A stretch of 4,766 bases of DNA from a virus (taxonomy: Duplodnaviria > Heunggongvirae > Uroviricota > Caudoviricetes): the IMG/VR virus record IMGVR_UViG_2778261165_000015. The stretch is one strand, 5' to 3'. Each line of letters opens with the position of its first letter. The stretch's first letter is position 1. Below are positions 1 through 4,766 of this stretch, in pieces. The notes under the pieces are model-generated. The model ran no database searches, had not been told where the DNA came from, and saw nothing but the letters and a program-made list of their open reading frames with translations. Position numbers and translations under genes: made by a program.

Positions 1-110
1 TGGAGATCACTGAATAACAAAATGAGTCAAAAGTGATCTCCATCGATGTTATTCAGCGATCTGTTCAAATGTTATTACCCGATCTCGATGGAAGTTATTG
101 AGTGATCTCC
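1..110. repeat. Array of GATC-containing 15-bp repeats (consensus GTTATTnnnYGATCT): direct copies at 48-62, 71-85 and 94-108 phased at exactly 23 bp, one inverted copy at 4-18, and a 9-bp inverted repeat GGAGATCAC / GTGATCTCC at 2-10 / 33-41
   Basis: Read directly: gttattcagcgatct (48-62), gttattacccgatct (71-85), gttattgagtgatct (94-108); agatcactgaataac (4-18) is the reverse complement of the consensus. GATC at 5, 36, 58, 81 and 104. The 23-bp period is not a multiple of 3, so this is a DNA-level signal, not a protein repeat. Confidence 0.8.
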
Positions 111-1851
111 TTTCATGAAAATACGCATCTTTAGCTAACTCTGGTAATTTAGCTTGTGCTTCCATTCGTTCAGGTGTAGAAGCTAATCTCTCATAACCTG
201 CATAGATAGCACTACCAGCTAATAACATATTCATAGGGTTTAGTCTTGATGGTTTCCCATTCTTTCTATTCACGTTATCCGCTGTAGTATCAGCGACCTG
301 ACCTAATCTTGTGATAGCAGTCATAAGCCCGTAAATACTTCTGGTTACACCAACAACTTTATTCACAGCAATAACACCAGCCAAGACTTTTAAACTATTA
401 ATCAAGCCAGAACCTAAAGCATCAACAACTTTCTTTTGTTCATCGGTTAAACCACGGTAAGCCAATGTCACCTCATCAAAGAAACCTCTCACCTTGTAAG
501 AAATATCAGTCAATGAATCGACACCATGTGACATATCAGTCATCAAGCTACCAAGAGATTCACCAAGACTTTTACCACTTCCACCTAAACTGTTTAAAAG
601 CGTTGTTAGGCTTCTTGTGAAATCTTGAAGACCATTTTCAGAACCTCTGAAGATACTATCAAGCGTGGTATTCCAAGAGTTTTTCAGGTTCCCTAGTTGT
701 GCCTGAGTACTTTCTGAAATAGTTTTCCAGCCACCTTTAGCGGTGATTTGTTTATTCAGTTCCTGAGTGACCTTCTGAAGAGTATCGGCAGATTTTAAAG
801 CCCCCTTCTTCATGGCATCAAATAGCTCTTGTTCATTCCTTCCGATTGCTTTAGCGAATACCTGAACCATACCAGGAACAGCTTCAGCTAATTGCCCCTT
901 AAGCTCTTCAGCCATAACCTGACCCTTACCAGCCATCTGTGATAATGCTGTCAGTGCTCGCTTAATCTCTTCTTCACTTCTCCCCATCAGACGAGCATAG
1001 CCAATCATATTTTTAAAAAGTTCTTCAGAACCTTGAATGCCCATAGACTCTTTAGCTGAAGCACCAAAACCAGCAAACTGTGATTGCAGTTCAGCGATAT
1101 CTAAACCCGTTGTTTGAGCTAATGACTTTGTGAACTCTTTTACTTGAACTGCATCTTTATCAAATACGAAATCAATTGAACGTTCAGCACTTGCACGCTG
1201 TAAACCAATTTCCATAATCTTCTGATAACTGGCTAATACAGCCTGCATTGAGATAAATGCACCTGCTGTTTTAACTGCCGCTGAAGACAGGTTATCAAGA
1301 CTATTAGCTGCTCTGTCACCATTAATGCTGGTGGATGTATGACCTTTAGCTTTAGCAATTGCTTCTCTGACTGAAGCATTTAACTGAGCTAACTTCTCAT
1401 TGAATTTTGAAGAATCCATTGACCCAGCTTTAGCAGATAGCCCGTAAAACTGAGATTTGATGTATTTCTGCAAAATAGGGTCGAAGCCTTTCAGCTTGCT
1501 CATGTTAGCCTGATAAGCTGCTCTTACAGCTCGGTCACCAGTATTTACTCTTGGCTGTCTTGGCTGTCTAAGTGGCTTTAAAGTATCCTCAATTTCCGTT
1601 TTAATCTTAAACGCTTTAGTGTTTTTAAGACGCTGCTCAATCTTGGAAACAGTTTTATCGACATTCTTTTCCATTAGTTTGAGAGAATCATTTAAAGGCG
1701 TAGGATTCACTTTAAACGCCTTATTCAATCGCTTCTCAATTCGTGATGCTACCTGCATCGTTTGTTTCTCGGCTTTTTCCAGACCTTTTAAAACTTTCTG
1801 AGAGTTAAAACTTAACTCAATCAGAAAATCATCAACTTTAAACTGTGCCAT
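49..1851 (-). CDS. Phage tail tape measure protein, lambda gpH-like (600 aa)
   Basis: 600-aa ORF with TAA stop at 49-51. N-terminus MAQFKVDDFLIELSF resembles the lambda H N-terminus as I recall it (MAEPVGDLVVDLSL). Central segment ALTALSQMAGKGQVMAEELKGQLAEAVPGMVQVFAKAIG matches the tape-measure-domain signature from memory. Helical, Ala/Leu/Lys/Gln-rich composition and a hydrophobic C-terminal stretch fit the family. SD AAGAGGTG lies 11 nt upstream of the ATG; an in-frame TGA two codons upstream fixes the start. Not verified by search. Confidence 0.75.
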   Translation of the reverse strand: MAQFKVDDFLIELSFNSQKVLKGLEKAEKQTMQVASRIEKRLNKAFKVNPTPLNDSLKLMEKNVDKTVSKIEQRLKNTKAFKIKTEIEDTLKPLRQPRQPRVNTGDRAVRAAYQANMSKLKGFDPILQKYIKSQFYGLSAKAGSMDSSKFNEKLAQLNASVREAIAKAKGHTSTSINGDRAANSLDNLSSAAVKTAGAFISMQAVLASYQKIMEIGLQRASAERSIDFVFDKDAVQVKEFTKSLAQTTGLDIAELQSQFAGFGASAKESMGIQGSEELFKNMIGYARLMGRSEEEIKRALTALSQMAGKGQVMAEELKGQLAEAVPGMVQVFAKAIGRNEQELFDAMKKGALKSADTLQKVTQELNKQITAKGGWKTISESTQAQLGNLKNSWNTTLDSIFRGSENGLQDFTRSLTTLLNSLGGSGKSLGESLGSLMTDMSHGVDSLTDISYKVRGFFDEVTLAYRGLTDEQKKVVDALGSGLINSLKVLAGVIAVNKVVGVTRSIYGLMTAITRLGQVADTTADNVNRKNGKPSRLNPMNMLLAGSAIYAGYERLASTPERMEAQAKLPELAKDAYFHERRSLNNFHRDRVITFEQIAE

Positions 1852-1934: not shown

Positions 1935-1961
1935 ACATAGGATTCGATAGAAGACTATCTC

Positions 1962-2267: not shown

Positions 2268-2978
2268 TCAAAGTGCTTTGCTGTATTTCTGAGAAATCTT
2301 AGTAAGCTGCTCAATATCAGCCTGCATAGCAATCTTCTTCTGTGATTCATATTCACTAATAATCGCTTTCATGCTATCAAGTTCTTTTTTAAGCTTTTGC
2401 TTTAACTTATCCAGCTTATCGGAGTAATGCTTAGTCAGATTAGCTTCAGCTAGCTGAAGAATCTCTTCATCTGTTTTATCAGTCATCAGAACAAATTGAC
2501 CAGAACCCCTTAATGCTTGTCTGACATCAATTAACCGGAACCCTTCAGGGATACTTTGAAGAACTTTAGGAACGTCTTCAATCGCTGTACCAAAACCATC
2601 ATTAAAGTTCCCTTCATAATAGATAAACGGGTTTGACTTAATCTCGTAAGCAATATCATATTCTGAAGGTTTCGAGGTTTCTTCGAAGTTCTTAACAGCA
2701 TCGTAAGCAATATCAAGTCTAAGACGCTGTGATTTTAAAGCTGGGTAATATTCACGCTCAAGATTAAATAGTGCTTCACTTTTGCAGATATCTGGCATTT
2801 CTTGAGGTTCAGGAGACACAAAGGTAATTTCCTTTGGTGACATCTTTAGCGATTGCTCAAGCTTAATTCTTTCATCGTGTTCTTTACGCTGAATAGCGAT
2901 AGCTGGATGTTCAGTCGTTGGTGACCAGTCACCGAAGCTATCAATCACTTTGCCATTAATGTAAATATCGTTTGTCAT
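2268..2978 (-). CDS. Hypothetical protein (236 aa) with a C-terminal coiled-coil-like region
   Basis: ORF with SD GAGG 9 nt upstream of the ATG. C-terminal ~60 residues are heptad-like and K/E/L/Q-rich (KLDKLKQKLKKELDSMKAIISEYESQKKIAMQADIEQL). No recognisable catalytic motif. Confidence 0.7.
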   Translation of the reverse strand: MTNDIYINGKVIDSFGDWSPTTEHPAIAIQRKEHDERIKLEQSLKMSPKEITFVSPEPQEMPDICKSEALFNLEREYYPALKSQRLRLDIAYDAVKNFEETSKPSEYDIAYEIKSNPFIYYEGNFNDGFGTAIEDVPKVLQSIPEGFRLIDVRQALRGSGQFVLMTDKTDEEILQLAEANLTKHYSDKLDKLKQKLKKELDSMKAIISEYESQKKIAMQADIEQLTKISQKYSKAL

Positions 2979-3003
2979 TATTTTTTTCCTCTAAGTGTGG
3001 TTA

Positions 3004-3081
3004 TTTCTTAATAGAGCACCTTCAACGCCAATACACTTAGAAGATGACTTAACGATTTATTAAAGATGCTCTATTAAGAAA
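3004..3081. repeat. Perfect 15-bp inverted repeat (TTTCTTAATAGAGCA) with arms at 3004-3018 and 3067-3081, 48-bp spacer
   Basis: Read directly; the reverse complement of 3067-3081 equals 3004-3018 exactly. Lies between hairpin H1 and the RBS of the 236-aa gene. Confidence 0.75.
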
Positions 3082-3110
3082 AGCCCTAAACATAATCTGT
3101 GAAGGGCTTT
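3071..3110 (-). terminator. Terminator-like hairpin H1 (AAAGCCCT / AGGGCTTT stem, 15-nt loop) followed by UUUUCUU on the minus strand
   Basis: Stem 3080-3087 / 3103-3110. The U-tract overlaps one arm of the 15-bp inverted repeat. Short stem, so termination is likely partial. Confidence 0.4.
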
Positions 3111-3170
3111 GAAGGTTTGCTTTATAACGTTAACGAAGTTTCAGGAAAAACTTTCTTTAAAAGCTCTGTT

Positions 3171-3209
3171 TAAAAACTCTTAAAGAAAGCCCTAATCATG
3201 AGTTAGGGC
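3171..3209 (-). terminator. Rho-independent terminator H2 (GCCCTAA / TTAGGGC stem, 7-nt loop) followed by UUUCUUUAAGAGUUUUU
   Basis: Perfect 7-bp stem at 3189-3195 / 3203-3209 with a U-rich tract on the minus strand. Shares the AAGAAA(A)GCCCTAA module with H1. Confidence 0.55.
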
Positions 3210-3255
3210 AAAGCTGTAAAGGATTCAAACGAATGAACAAAGACTTTTTGAGATA

Positions 3256-3280
3256 GCCTCTCAAGTTATATAAGAGAGGC
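3256..3280 (-). other. Stem-loop H3 (GCCTCTC / GAGAGGC, 11-nt loop) within the leader; no adjacent U-tract
   Basis: Perfect 7-bp inverted repeat read directly; flanks are not U-rich on either strand, so probably not a terminator. Confidence 0.4.
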
Positions 3281-3377
3281 CATGACGAAAAGCATTGCAC
3301 CTTTCCAACTCAGAATATCCATCCATCGGATTATTGAAAATATGATTTTAGGAAAAATTGCTCTTCCTATATATACA

Positions 3378-3406
3378 ATTATGTCATGCTCAAGGTTATT
3401 TGTCAA
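3378..3406 (-). promoter_or_regulatory. Near-consensus sigma70-type promoter: -35 TTGACA, 17-bp spacer, extended -10 TGaCATAAT
   Basis: Minus strand reads gctgTTGACAaataaccttgagcaTGaCATAATtgtatat. -35 is 6/6, spacer 17, -10 is 5/6 with a TG at -15/-14. Predicted start site near 3371, transcribing toward the terminators and the 236-aa gene. Confidence 0.55.
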
Positions 3407-3431
3407 CAGCTTTTAACAGATTGATAACAAT

Positions 3432-3497
3432 CTATACTTTAATAGACGCACCTGCAATCATACCAACCAATACAAAACAGATAATCACCAATTCCAT
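3432..3497 (-). CDS. Candidate 21-aa hydrophobic micro-protein (MELVIICFVLVGMIAGASIKV), a single predicted transmembrane helix
   Basis: Not in the supplied ORF track (too short). ATG overlaps the upstream TAA stop (TAATG). SD AAGGTGG sits 7 nt upstream. A 17-residue uninterrupted hydrophobic core is flanked by E and K. TAG stop at 3432-3434. Confidence 0.4.
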   Translation of the reverse strand: MELVIICFVLVGMIAGASIKV

Positions 3498-3820
3498 TAA
3501 TGCACCACCTTCGAATCCGTCACCAAAATATTGTCAGCGTACAAAATTGCTATAGCTGCCTTGAGATATCTTTCAGGGCTAACGCTGTATTTGTTCGTTT
3601 GCTCAATAACCAATCTTTTCATATTACTGTCTGTAATTGGTAACATCATTCGAGGCTCGTTAAACTCCACCGAGTGAATAAAGTCAGAGATGCTTTCCGC
3701 ATTATCAGCCATTAACTCTAACAACTTATCAAAGTCAATGCTAACACCTACATCAGTGAAAGCCTGAATCATCATGGCGGTGTCGGTATCAATAAAAATC
3801 TGTAGTGGGAAATTATTCAT
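3497..3820 (-). CDS. Hypothetical protein (107 aa from ATG 3820; the track's longer 144-aa form starts at 3931)
   Basis: ATG at 3820 has an AGGA SD with 8-nt spacing. The extra 37 codons upstream (3821-3931) are GC-richer with atypical codons (CCG, CTC, AGG), lack a good SD and overlap an inverted repeat, so the shorter start is preferred. No cysteines, no recognised motif. Confidence 0.55.
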   Translation of the reverse strand: MNNFPLQIFIDTDTAMMIQAFTDVGVSIDFDKLLELMADNAESISDFIHSVEFNEPRMMLPITDSNMKRLVIEQTNKYSVSPERYLKAAIAILYADNILVTDSKVVH

Positions 3821-4345: not shown

Positions 4346-4581
4346 TAAACCTCCATCGCTAATTTGTGAATTTTGATACTTAGTAACCTTGCTAAATCCA
4401 GTCCAAAAGCATTTAAAGATTTCAGACTATCAAGGTCATCTTTCTTAATCCTGACATGGTGTCTTGCTGCCTCTAAACGACTATTAAGCAAATCCTGCTC
4501 GTTAATATCACGGTTAATTGCAAGCTTCATCACTGCTGAGTGCTGAGAGATCCCCTCATAATTTCCCCAAAGCGTAACCAT
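4345..4581 (-). CDS. Hypothetical protein (78 aa as drawn; start uncertain)
   Basis: ORF whose stop overlaps the start of the 128-aa gene. No convincing SD before ATG 4581 or the internal GTG/ATG at codons 17/18. The first 26 nt overlap the upstream partial ORF. Confidence 0.45.
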   Translation of the reverse strand: MVTLWGNYEGISQHSAVMKLAINRDINEQDLLNSRLEAARHHVRIKKDDLDSLKSLNAFGLDLARLLSIKIHKLAMEV

Positions 4582-4766
4582 GTGTGAATAAATTTTGAGC
4601 TAGTAGGGTTGCAGCCACGAGTAAGTCTTCCCTTGTTATTGTGTAGCCAGAATGCCGCAAAACTTCCATGCCTAAGCGAACTGTTGAGAGTACGTTTCGA
4701 TTTCTGACTGTGTTAGCCTGGAAGTGCTTGTCCCAACCTTGTTTCTGAGCATGAACGCCCGCAAGC
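4556..4766 (-). CDS. 3' end of a gene whose 5' part lies beyond the window (69 codons visible, C-terminus ...LFTHGYALGKL)
   Basis: Stop-free minus-strand frame from the window edge to TGA at 4556-4558, not in the supplied track because no start is in the window. GC content here is visibly higher (~47%) than the rest. Confidence 0.45.
   Translation of the reverse strand, partial: LAGVHAQKQGWDKHFQANTVRNRNVLSTVRLGMEVLRHSGYTITREDLLVAATLLAQNLFTHGYALGKL

What the first reader, a model, noticed from the sequence alone, without database searches (positions are those of the whole stretch)
3004..3209. Duplicated terminator module and a perfect 15-bp inverted repeat bracketing 48 bp before the 236-aa gene
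H1 and H2 share the module AAGAAA(A)GCCCTAA about 107 bp apart, suggesting duplication of a terminator unit. The U-tract of H1 is one arm of a perfect 15-bp inverted repeat whose partner lies 48 nt downstream. In RNA this would form a long stem that could be a processing site or a structure competing with termination; in DNA it could be a binding site for a dimeric protein with widely spaced half-sites.
Basis: seen in the sequence. Interest (0 to 1): 0.45.

Follow-up and report, generated by a model that had tools for sequence, protein, structure and literature searches.

The report
Structured leader RNA that masks a ribosome-binding site
The repeat is real and is the stem of a conserved RNA hairpin in the untranslated leader of a prophage-like E. 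coli element; the hairpin's loop can pair with the ribosome-binding site of the next gene, so it most likely gates translation rather than termination.

Summary
All genes lie on the minus strand. The finding is the 3' half of a ~390-nt untranslated, highly structured leader. The leader runs from a near-consensus sigma-70 promoter (3406-3378) to the ATG of the 236-aa gene (2978).

It holds two intrinsic terminators, H2 (3209-3189) and H1 (3110-3080), which share a 23-nt repeat. Each U-tract is also the 5' strand of a following helix.

The 15-bp perfect repeat extends with two G·U pairs to a 22-bp stem (3081-3060 / 3025-3004) with a 34-nt loop. In ~100 homologous leaders the stem occurs in four sequence versions linked by compensatory changes. 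Its mismatches are mostly G·U on the sense strand.

It is complementary to the ribosome-binding site (2998-2987). This complementarity is kept in all four versions, with a shifted register in one.

The best reading is a cis-acting translational gate on read-through transcripts. RNase III processing of the stem is plausible but untested. Competition with termination and a DNA operator are both poorly supported. It matches no Rfam family. I rate it a new variant of a known kind, of moderate interest.

The parts
3378..3406 (-). Sigma-70 promoter: TTGACA, 17-nt spacer, TG-n-CATAAT (11 of 12 matches, extended -10). It is the only strong promoter upstream of the 236-aa gene.
   Evidence: Conserved in all 21 aligned homologous leaders.
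3288..3305 (-). Conserved leader block GAAAGGUGCAAUGCUUUU, predicted to form a small hairpin. It was used as the anchor to collect homologs.
3244..3292 (-). Leader hairpin (GGCCUCUC...GAGAGGCU). Homologs carry different sequences that keep the pairing.
   Evidence: (I2), alignment and alifold.
3189..3209 (-). H2: intrinsic terminator hairpin GCCCUAA-loop-UUAGGGC. The U-tract UUUCUUU follows at 3188-3182.
   Evidence: terminator scan. dG -10.4 kcal/mol. The loop occurs in both orientations among homologs.
3151..3189 (-). 13-bp helix whose 5' strand is the U-tract of H2 (arms 3189-3177 and 3163-3151, 13-nt loop).
   Evidence: I3, 92% complementary, the mismatch being G·U. Folds (-24.6 kcal/mol together with H2).
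3177..3199 (.). Copy 2 of the direct repeat (terminator 3' arm plus U-tract).
   Evidence: D1.
3071..3093 (.). Copy 1 of the direct repeat (terminator 3' arm plus U-tract).
   Evidence: D1. L112 shows a deletion between the two copies.
3080..3110 (-). H1: hairpin AAAGCCCU-loop-AGGGCUUU followed by UUUUCUU. The loop is variable (insertions, one inversion).
   Evidence: dG -14.0 kcal/mol..
3060..3081 (-). 5' arm of the long RNA stem, UUUCUUAAUAGAGCAUCUUUAA. It includes the U-tract of H1.
   Evidence: (I1).
3033..3044 (-). Anti-Shine-Dalgarno sequence UCUUCUAAGUGU in the 34-nt apical loop.
   Evidence: I6. Duplex with the ribosome-binding site -16.9 kcal/mol. Conserved and covarying in four classes.
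3004..3025 (-). 3' arm of the long RNA stem, UUGAAGGUGCUCUAUUAAGAAA.
   Evidence: (I1).
2987..2998 (-). Ribosome-binding-site segment ACACUUAGAGGA (SD core GAGG at 2991-2988), complementary to the loop anti-SD. The ATG is at 2978-2976.
   Evidence: (I6).
2268..2978 (-). 236-aa gene controlled by the leader. Function unknown. It is the first gene of the cluster with a 69-aa ORF and the tape-measure gene.

Best explanation
The finding is the 3' half of a long untranslated leader RNA made from the minus strand. Transcripts come from the near-consensus promoter at 3406-3378 and from the upstream operon, which has no terminator of its own before this point.

These transcripts first meet two tandem intrinsic terminators, H2 and H1. 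No promoter is detectable between H1 and the ATG. The 236-aa gene, and the tape-measure and 'baseplate' genes behind it, can therefore only be expressed from read-through RNA.

In read-through RNA the U-tract of each terminator is zipped into a helix with an A-rich segment made later. The second helix is a 22-bp stem (27-30 bp in other versions). Its 34-nt loop presents a 12-nt anti-Shine-Dalgarno sequence. That sequence can pair with the ribosome-binding site only 5 nt beyond the stem (-17 kcal/mol). Pairing would give a pseudoknot-like lock, or a partly competing structure, that hides the site from 30S subunits.

The module is thus a translational gate laid on top of transcription termination.

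Most likely release mechanism (inferred, not shown): the long uninterrupted duplex is cut by host RNase III. That would detach the anti-SD loop and the upstream leader from the message and leave the ribosome-binding site free.

Shown:
- the repeat
- its conservation as RNA pairing on the sense strand
- the loop-to-RBS complementarity and its covariation
- the terminator features

Inferred:
- that the loop-RBS helix actually forms and represses
- that RNase III or another factor relieves it
For: 1. Repeat statistics: the 15-bp perfect inverted repeat is unmatched in 200 shuffles. Fold z-scores are -6.3 and -8.1.

2. Comparative evidence: about 120 homologous leaders were collected from E. coli genomes, viral contigs and metagenomes, giving 83 unique H1-to-ATG segments.
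- The long stem exists in four sequence classes, A to D, of 22-30 bp.
- On a 25-sequence alignment, 94.3% of cells in 27 pairs are paired.
- 15 pairs show changes on both sides.
- Over the full 39-pair structure submitted (stem plus anti-SD:RBS helix), 37-53% of cells are paired when partners are slid by 1-3 columns, against 88.4% in register, and 0 of 500 shuffles reach the observed covariation score.
- C-G, U·G and U-A all occur at the same positions.

3. Strand: non-Watson-Crick positions are 212 G·U against 48 A·C on the sense strand. Covariance model R1 scores the sense strand 86-106 bits in classes A, B and D (65 bits for the single class C sequence) and the antisense strand 22-54 bits, with one site per element.

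4. Loop-RBS duplex: mean dG is -17.9 (A), -17.6 (B), -18.0 (C) and -12.8 (D) kcal/mol. Shuffled loops give -6 to -9 +/- 2.3. Classes A to C use CUUCUAAG:CUUAGA(A/G)G with class-specific extensions. Class D uses a different pair, UUCACCUCU:AGAGGUGAA. The SD core is always included.

5. Loop orientation: the loops of H1, H2 and a 5' hairpin occur in both orientations among homologs. The loop of the long stem is never inverted: the anti-SD motif is in the sense orientation in 82 of 83 unique segments (the 83rd is an unrelated sequence) and inverted in none. This argues for orientation-dependent function.

6. The same module precedes two only ~25%-identical gene families.

7. No promoter-like site lies between H1 and the ATG.
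Against: - There is no expression or structure-probing data. Whether H1 and H2 terminate, and how read-through is achieved, is unknown.
- Nested-fold energetics favour the long stem with a free loop (-47.9 kcal/mol) over the nested anti-SD:SD conformer (-38.2). Repression therefore needs a pseudoknot or partial opening of the stem.
- A simple reach estimate says the full stem and the full duplex cannot coexist in many class A and B members. It is feasible for the 12-bp core in the window but not for short-linker B forms.
- Variation within each class is low, so the covariation rests on about four lineages, and module swaps are not independent events.
- RNase III cleavage is only inferred from helix length.
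- In 29 of 102 unique leaders there is a single GC hairpin. In the 11 unique class B segments that begin (U/C)AUUCAG its U-tract is poor, so termination is not an invariant part of the device.
Confidence: 0.6

Rival explanations
1. Reverse polarity. The long stem holds the anti-SD in a constrained loop, so it cannot reach the ribosome-binding site. Intact read-through RNA is then translated. If the 5' arm (the U-tract) is removed by decay or bound by a factor such as Hfq, the anti-SD:SD hairpin forms and silences the message. This would be a built-in functional inactivation timer.
For: The nested minimum-energy fold keeps the long stem and leaves the loop free. The reach estimate suggests the full stem and full duplex are sterically incompatible in many members. 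The forced anti-SD:SD conformer is a stable alternative at -38.2 kcal/mol once the stem is lost. H1 plus its U-tract resembles an Hfq-binding module (own knowledge).
Against: It does not explain why a 22-30 bp stem is needed rather than a short one. The basal AU pairs are cheap to open, so a pseudoknot with a frayed stem remains possible. There are no data on decay intermediates.
Confidence: 0.2
2. The stem-loop is only a processing or stability element: an RNase III site or a 5' protective hairpin that separates the early RNA from the late message. On this view the loop-RBS complementarity has no regulatory role.
For: The duplex is long and uninterrupted, like phage RNase III sites (own knowledge). 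It sits at an operon boundary behind terminators.
Against: The loop-RBS complementarity is far above shuffled controls in all four classes. It was re-created with a different sequence in class D. The loop orientation is strictly conserved, although neighbouring hairpin loops flip.
Confidence: 0.1
3. Attenuator. Pairing of the U-tract, or partner-swapping between the duplicated hairpins (H2 3' arm with H1 5' arm), competes with terminator formation and sets the level of read-through.
For: Because of the duplication, the H2 3' arm and the H1 5' arm are perfectly complementary over 8 nt (I23). A swapped-partner fold is only ~3 kcal/mol above the minimum-energy fold.
Against: The partner of the U-tract is transcribed 55-77 nt after the release site and does not touch the H1 stem. 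With the H2 5' arm blocked, H1 still forms. Twenty-nine of 102 unique leaders have a single hairpin and so cannot swap partners. There is no conserved leader peptide: the ATG in the H1 loop is absent in several variants. There is no Rfam riboswitch.
Confidence: 0.05
4. DNA-level element: a binding site for a dimeric protein with widely spaced half-sites, or a cruciform or recombination site.
For: There is a long inverted repeat in AT-rich DNA. Loop inversions in neighbouring hairpins show that DNA-level hairpin events do occur here.
Against: The arms differ in sequence between classes while staying complementary. Mismatches are G·U-type on one strand. The covariance model scores are strand-asymmetric. 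The second, interleaved complementarity involves the SD.
Confidence: 0.04

Closest known systems
Phage lambda N-leader RNase III site, and T7 early RNase III sites (own knowledge)
   Same: A long duplex in an untranslated phage leader or intercistronic region. In lambda N the leader structure limits ribosome access, and RNase III processing relieves it.
   Different: There is no sequence or Rfam similarity. Here the anti-SD sits in the apical loop of a perfect 22-30 bp stem. The 5' arm is the U-tract of a terminator. Cleavage has not been shown.
SD-sequestering pseudoknots such as the rpsO (S15) operator, and the ColIb-P9 repZ loop-RBS pseudoknot (own knowledge)
   Same: A hairpin loop pairs with a downstream segment at or next to the ribosome-binding site.
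   Different: Those stems are short and the pseudoknot is compact. Here stem 1 is two to three helical turns long, so simultaneous formation is sterically uncertain. No partner protein or antisense RNA is known.
Fold-back inhibition of IS10/IS50 transposase mRNA; 5'-processing-dependent activation of tisB (own knowledge)
   Same: Transcripts that carry extra upstream sequence fold so that the ribosome-binding site is hidden. Only the right 5' end is translated.
   Different: Here no internal promoter or mapped processing site is known that would give a shorter, active RNA.
Lambda PR'-tR' (6S RNA) with Q antitermination; HK022 put RNA (own knowledge)
   Same: A strong constitutive-looking promoter is followed by a short structured leader, then terminator(s), then late or structural genes. 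This implies conditional read-through.
   Different: No Q-like or put-like sequence was detected. No antiterminator was identified: the upstream 107-aa protein has no family or PDB match.
Classical intrinsic terminators in tandem
   Same: GC-rich hairpin followed by a U-tract, on the coding strand at the end of an operon.
   Different: Each U-tract has a conserved downstream complement that folds it into a second helix in read-through RNA.

Membership tests
Intrinsic (Rho-independent) terminator | GC-rich stem-loop directly followed by a U-rich tract on the transcribed strand | tested here: met
   H2 was found by the scan (7 bp, 4 GC pairs, tail UUUCUUU). H1 has an 8-bp AAAGCCCU/AGGGCUUU stem with tail UUUUCUU, dG -14.0 kcal/mol. 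The scan did not call H1.
Intrinsic (Rho-independent) terminator | Actual transcript release at the U-tract | not testable with these tools
   Needs term-seq, 3' RACE or in vitro transcription.
Transcription attenuator (terminator/antiterminator switch) | An alternative pairing that involves the terminator stem and is available before the polymerase leaves the U-tract | tested here: not met
   The partner of the U-tract lies 55-77 nt downstream and does not involve the H1 stem. Both structures coexist in the minimum-energy fold. With the H2 5' arm blocked, H1 still forms.
Transcription attenuator (terminator/antiterminator switch) | A sensor: leader peptide, ligand aptamer or T-box | tested here: not met
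   No Rfam family match at E <= 1 except a chance microRNA hit. The small ORF that starts in the H1 loop is absent in several variants.
RNase III processing site | About 20 bp or more of largely uninterrupted double-stranded RNA | tested here: met
   22 bp in the window and 27-30 bp in classes B and D, kept by compensatory changes.
RNase III processing site | Cleavage by RNase III, and absence of antideterminant base pairs | not tested
   No cleavage data. Antideterminant rules were not applied.
SD-sequestering cis-regulatory RNA (anti-SD element) | A segment in the same RNA that is complementary to the SD and its flanks, beyond chance | tested here: met
   12 of 12 pairs in the window, one of them G·U, at -16.9 kcal/mol. 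Classes A to D give -12.8 to -18.0 kcal/mol, against -6 to -9 for shuffled loops.
SD-sequestering cis-regulatory RNA (anti-SD element) | Covariation that keeps the anti-SD:SD pairing | tested here: met
   Class D has a different anti-SD and SD-flank pair. Classes A, B and C extend the shared core on different sides. In 19 of 19 non-D sequences at least 8 of the 12 scored columns (57-64) pair. This amounts to few independent events.
H-type pseudoknot | Both helices can form at once, given the loop lengths | tested here: inconclusive
   Energy estimates are similar for the two states. The reach estimate is feasible for the 12-bp core in the window and for class D, but not for short-linker class B forms unless the stem frays.
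Known Rfam RNA family | Covariance-model match at or near the gathering score | tested here: not met
   The only hit is MIR6445 at 21.8 bits against a gathering score of 100, E = 0.73.
DNA operator with two half-sites | Half-site sequence conserved among homologs and symmetric on both strands | tested here: not met
   The arms differ between classes while staying complementary. Mismatches are 212 G·U against 48 A·C. The model scores are strand-asymmetric.

The most novel reading that the evidence does not exclude
This may be an undescribed class of cis-regulatory RNA that marks the early/late boundary of a widespread, uncharacterised satellite-like element of Escherichia. In it, a terminator whose U-tract is clamped into a two- to three-turn helix presents an anti-SD loop. 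The result would be a lock that is opened only by a specific event, such as RNase III cleavage or a helper- or element-encoded factor. The conserved 5' leader hairpins may add RNA-based antitermination.
Probability: 0.25. Interest if true: 0.6.

Novelty: new variant of a known kind. Interest (0 to 1): 0.45.

Why it matters
The element is present in about 9% of complete E. coli genomes (475 of 5,426), including O157:H7 (L155). Its genes are almost all unannotated. The leader is the only visible control point between its regulatory genes and its tape-measure/'baseplate' cluster.

The anti-SD presented on a terminator-anchored stem is conserved and covarying. It gives a concrete, mutable handle for asking when and how this cryptic element expresses its structural genes. 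It also adds a distinct architecture to the catalogue of leader RNAs that mask ribosome-binding sites. No long-standing open question depends on it.

Tried and rejected
- Rfam scan of the whole window at E <= 1: nothing relevant. No tRNA or tmRNA.
- Similarity of the leader to GenBank phages (distant blastn): none.
- Literature search for the leader sequences, for comparable architectures and for the element: nothing specific. The yecE papers concern Stx phages, not this element.
- Leader-peptide model. A 14-codon ORF starts at the ATG in the H1 loop and ends just before the anti-SD. I rejected it because the ATG is missing in variants with other H1 loops (CACAGAAACG..., the inverted loop, the short-leader hairpin), and its frame and stop change with the U-tract length.
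- Attenuator by partner swapping of the duplicated hairpins: not favoured energetically and impossible in single-hairpin leaders.
- A second copy of the module elsewhere in the element: covariance model R1 finds one site per element. The terminator plus weak inverted repeat before the tape-measure gene (2009-1974; 1877-1890/1924-1937) shows no convincing anti-SD.
- Function of the neighbouring proteins. The 236-aa and 107-aa proteins have no Pfam, PHROG or PDB sequence match. The AlphaFold model of the 236-aa protein was too poor (pLDDT 58) for a fold search.
- About a third of the metagenome hits to the 18-mer anchor lack the promoter and the leader. They are chance matches and were discarded.

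Full report
**Context.** All ORFs of the window lie on the minus strand. The window is part of a ~15-kb integrated element of E. coli. The element carries a serine recombinase, a 'baseplate' protein, a tape-measure protein, a string of small unannotated genes, often an HNH endonuclease, and an AP2/ERF-type regulator. It is inserted in yecE (L002, L155) or between tonB and yciI (L001). Both ends of the window are insertion sequences: 1-127 is a multi-copy IS end and 4553-4766 is IS10/ISVsa5. A blastn search with 2940-3440 finds the region in 475 of 5,426 complete E. coli genomes and in no GenBank phage.

The finding lies in the 518-nt gap between a 107-aa gene (3497-3820) and the 236-aa gene (2268-2978). 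Gene order around the gap is the same in every homolog inspected.

**Checking the observation.** The perfect 15-bp inverted repeat is at 3004-3018 and 3067-3081, 48 nt apart. It is the longest in the window. None of 200 dinucleotide shuffles reached 15; their maximum was 13. Allowing two mismatches, it extends to 22 nt (3004-3025 and 3060-3081) with a 34-nt loop. On the minus strand both mismatches are G·U pairs.

The shared module is a 23-nt direct repeat, 3071-3093 and 3177-3199, 83% identical, 106 nt apart. It covers the 3' arm and the U-tract of both hairpins.
- H2 (3209-3189, tail UUUCUUU) is called a terminator by the scan, with dG -10.4 kcal/mol.
- H1 (AAAGCCCU/AGGGCUUU, 3110-3080, tail UUUUCUU) has dG -14.0 kcal/mol.

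The minus-strand RNA of the whole leader folds far better than shuffles, z = -8.1. For 3125-2975 the value is z = -6.3.

**What surrounds it.** The only strong promoter-like site in the window is TTGACA-17-TGcATAAT at 3406-3378 on the minus strand, with 11 of 12 matches. It is conserved in all 21 aligned homologs. No promoter-like site lies between H1 and the ATG. No terminator separates the upstream operon from this promoter.

H2 and H1 therefore end both the upstream operon and a ~190-290-nt promoter-proximal RNA. The 236-aa gene and the tape-measure cluster behind it depend on read-through.

- The U-tract of H2 is also the 5' strand of a helix: 3189-3177 pairs with 3163-3151, 13 bp with one G·U (I3). 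The duplicated unit is thus 'GC hairpin + U-tract + downstream complement of the U-tract'. An alignment of the two units is consistent with H2 carrying a short version of the long stem.
- The loop of the long stem contains UCUUCUAAGUGU (3044-3033). This is complementary over 12 of 12 positions, one of them G·U, to ACACUUAGAGGA (2998-2987). That segment is the Shine-Dalgarno region of the 236-aa gene (I6). The duplex is worth -16.9 kcal/mol.

**Comparative evidence.** I collected homologous leaders from three sources:
- annotated E. coli genomes;
- a protein-guided scan of genome and viral contigs;
- scans of viral and metagenome contigs for the conserved leader 18-mer GAAAGGTGCAATGCTTTT.

After discarding chance 18-mer hits, 121 loci gave 102 unique leaders and 83 unique H1-to-ATG segments.

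The long stem exists in four sequence classes:
- A: 22-23 bp. The window belongs to this class.
- B: 26-30 bp.
- C: 23 bp, a single sequence (L146).
- D: 25-29 bp.

MAFFT places all four classes in one register. On that alignment 94.3% of cells in 27 pairs are standard pairs, and 15 pairs show changes on both sides. For the full 39-pair structure submitted (stem plus the anti-SD:RBS helix), sliding the partners by 1-3 columns drops pairing from 88.4% to 37-53%, and none of 500 column shuffles reaches the observed covariation score. Single positions pass through C-G, U·G and U-A.

Non-Watson-Crick positions are 212 G·U against 48 A·C on the sense strand. A covariance model of the stem scores the sense strand 86-106 bits in classes A, B and D (65 bits for L146, class C) and the antisense strand 22-54 bits. 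It finds exactly one site per element. Together this identifies an RNA helix on the sense strand, not a DNA site.

The loop-to-RBS complementarity is also conserved. RNAduplex energies between the loop and the segment from the stem to the AUG average -17.9 (A), -17.6 (B), -18.0 (C) and -12.8 (D) kcal/mol. Shuffled loops give -6 to -9 +/- 2.3.
- Classes A to C share the core CUUCUAAG:CUUAGA(A/G)G but extend it on different sides.
- Class D uses an unrelated pair, UUCACCUCU:AGAGGUGAA, shifted onto the SD and its 3' flank.

The SD core is always inside the duplex, and gene-specific flanking bases take part. The target is therefore the gene's own ribosome-binding site.

The module precedes two gene families that are only ~25% identical (MTNDIY... 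and MSIRDEHEM...).

An independent argument comes from DNA-level 'flip-flop'. The H2 loop occurs in both orientations (20 against 41 unique leaders). The H1 loop is inverted in one leader, and a 5' hairpin loop also flips. The loop of the long stem, flanked by a much longer inverted repeat, carries the anti-SD in the sense orientation in 82 of the 83 unique segments (the 83rd is an unrelated sequence) and is inverted in none. L112 carries the H2 hairpin fused to the H1 tail. This is a deletion between the two repeat copies, and it confirms that they are recombining duplicates.

**Mechanism.** The U-tract's partner lies 55-77 nt beyond the release point and does not touch the H1 stem. H1 and the long stem coexist in the minimum-energy fold. 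The repeat therefore cannot act as an antiterminator.

Partner swapping between the duplicated hairpins is possible on paper, about 3 kcal/mol above the minimum-energy fold. However, H1 still forms when the H2 5' arm is blocked, and 29 of 102 leaders have a single hairpin. The small ORF that starts in the H1 loop is not conserved.

What is conserved everywhere is this series: GC hairpin, long stem, anti-SD loop, ribosome-binding site. I conclude that the module controls ribosome access on read-through RNA.

Nested folding favours the long stem (-47.9 kcal/mol) over the nested anti-SD:SD conformer (-38.2). A stem-plus-duplex pseudoknot would come to about -55 kcal/mol before the pseudoknot penalty, which is comparable to the minimum-energy fold. 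A crude reach estimate gives a mixed answer. The 12-bp core duplex can coexist with the 22-bp stem in the window and in class D. In short-linker class B forms it cannot, unless several basal A-U pairs open. The exact geometry is therefore open.

My preferred reading is that the loop-RBS helix represses translation. A 22-30 bp uninterrupted duplex of this kind is a typical RNase III substrate (established knowledge of RNase III). Its cleavage would remove the anti-SD and the upstream leader and so activate the message. This step is inference.

The main rival is the opposite polarity: the stem insulates the anti-SD, and the message is silenced once the 5' arm is lost or bound.

**Comparison and novelty.** Several known systems work similarly:
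- the lambda N leader and the T7 RNase III sites;
- SD-containing pseudoknots (rpsO) and the repZ loop-RBS pseudoknot;
- fold-back inhibition in IS10;
- the PR'-tR' arrangement of lambdoid late operons.

These comparisons rest on my own knowledge. None shares sequence with this leader, and Rfam has no matching family. I found no paper containing the leader sequences.

The specific architecture is a terminator U-tract clamped into a two- to three-turn helix that presents an anti-SD loop. I have not seen this described. It is, however, a variation on well-known principles. I rate it a new variant of a known kind, with interest 0.45.

The proteins give no help. The 236-aa and 107-aa products have no Pfam, PHROG or PDB sequence match. 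NCBI's name 'transposase' for the 236-aa protein is unsupported by these searches. Its AlphaFold model is poor (pLDDT 58) and mostly helical.

Noticed in passing
window 3432-3497 (minus strand): A 21-codon hydrophobic ORF (MELVIICFVLVGMIAGASIKV). Its ATG overlaps the stop of the 107-aa gene (TAATG). Homologs carry either this form or a 25-26-aa form (MGLIIAWTLLGLLVGCWVGNTVNKN). It may be a small membrane peptide and is unannotated.
   Followed up: partly
window 3189-3209 (H2 loop), 3080-3110 (H1 loop); L081, L100, L006, L025: Hairpin loops occur as exact reverse complements among homologs (H2: 20 against 41 unique leaders; H1: 27 against 1; also a 5' leader hairpin). This is DNA-level loop inversion between the short inverted repeats. 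L112 has a 106-nt deletion between the two copies of the terminator repeat.
   Followed up: yes
window 3210-3375 (minus strand) and homologous leaders: The 5' half of the leader is a mosaic of small hairpins. Several have alternative sequences that keep the pairing. There are optional inserted hairpin modules (a 27-nt GGATAGTCTTCTATCC unit after the start site and a 29-nt GGTATGTTCTATACC unit). The block GAAAGGUGCAAUGCUUUUCG is invariant in the loci retrieved by homology. This could be an sRNA or an antitermination RNA in its own right.
   Followed up: partly
window 1941-1961, 1974-2009, and 1877-1890 / 1924-1937: Before the tape-measure gene there is a strong terminator (15-bp stem followed by UUUUUUG). 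After it comes a small hairpin related to the optional leader insert, and then a 14-nt inverted repeat with a 33-nt loop. The layout is similar to the finding, but there is no clear anti-SD.
   Followed up: partly
window 1-127 and 4553-4766: Both window ends are insertion sequences. 1-127 is a multi-copy IS end found in 1,703 E. coli genomes; in L001 a copy lies just before an IS21-like ISEc12 istA gene. It truncates the 3' end of the tape-measure gene. 4553-4766 is IS10/ISVsa5 and disrupts the 78-aa ORF region.
   Followed up: partly
L002 5185-20500; L155 7900-21200; L001: The host element is ~15 kb. It carries a serine recombinase, a 'baseplate' protein, a tape-measure protein, about eight small unknown genes, an AP2/ERF-type regulator and, in many copies, an HNH endonuclease. 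No capsid, terminase or lysis genes are annotated. It sits in yecE or between tonB and yciI and is present in ~9% of complete E. coli genomes. It looks like a satellite or a decayed prophage of an undescribed kind.
   Followed up: partly
window 2268-2978: NCBI names the 236-aa protein 'transposase' in many records. It has no Pfam, PHROG or PDB sequence match, and its predicted structure is mainly long helices at low confidence. The name is probably an annotation artefact.
   Followed up: partly
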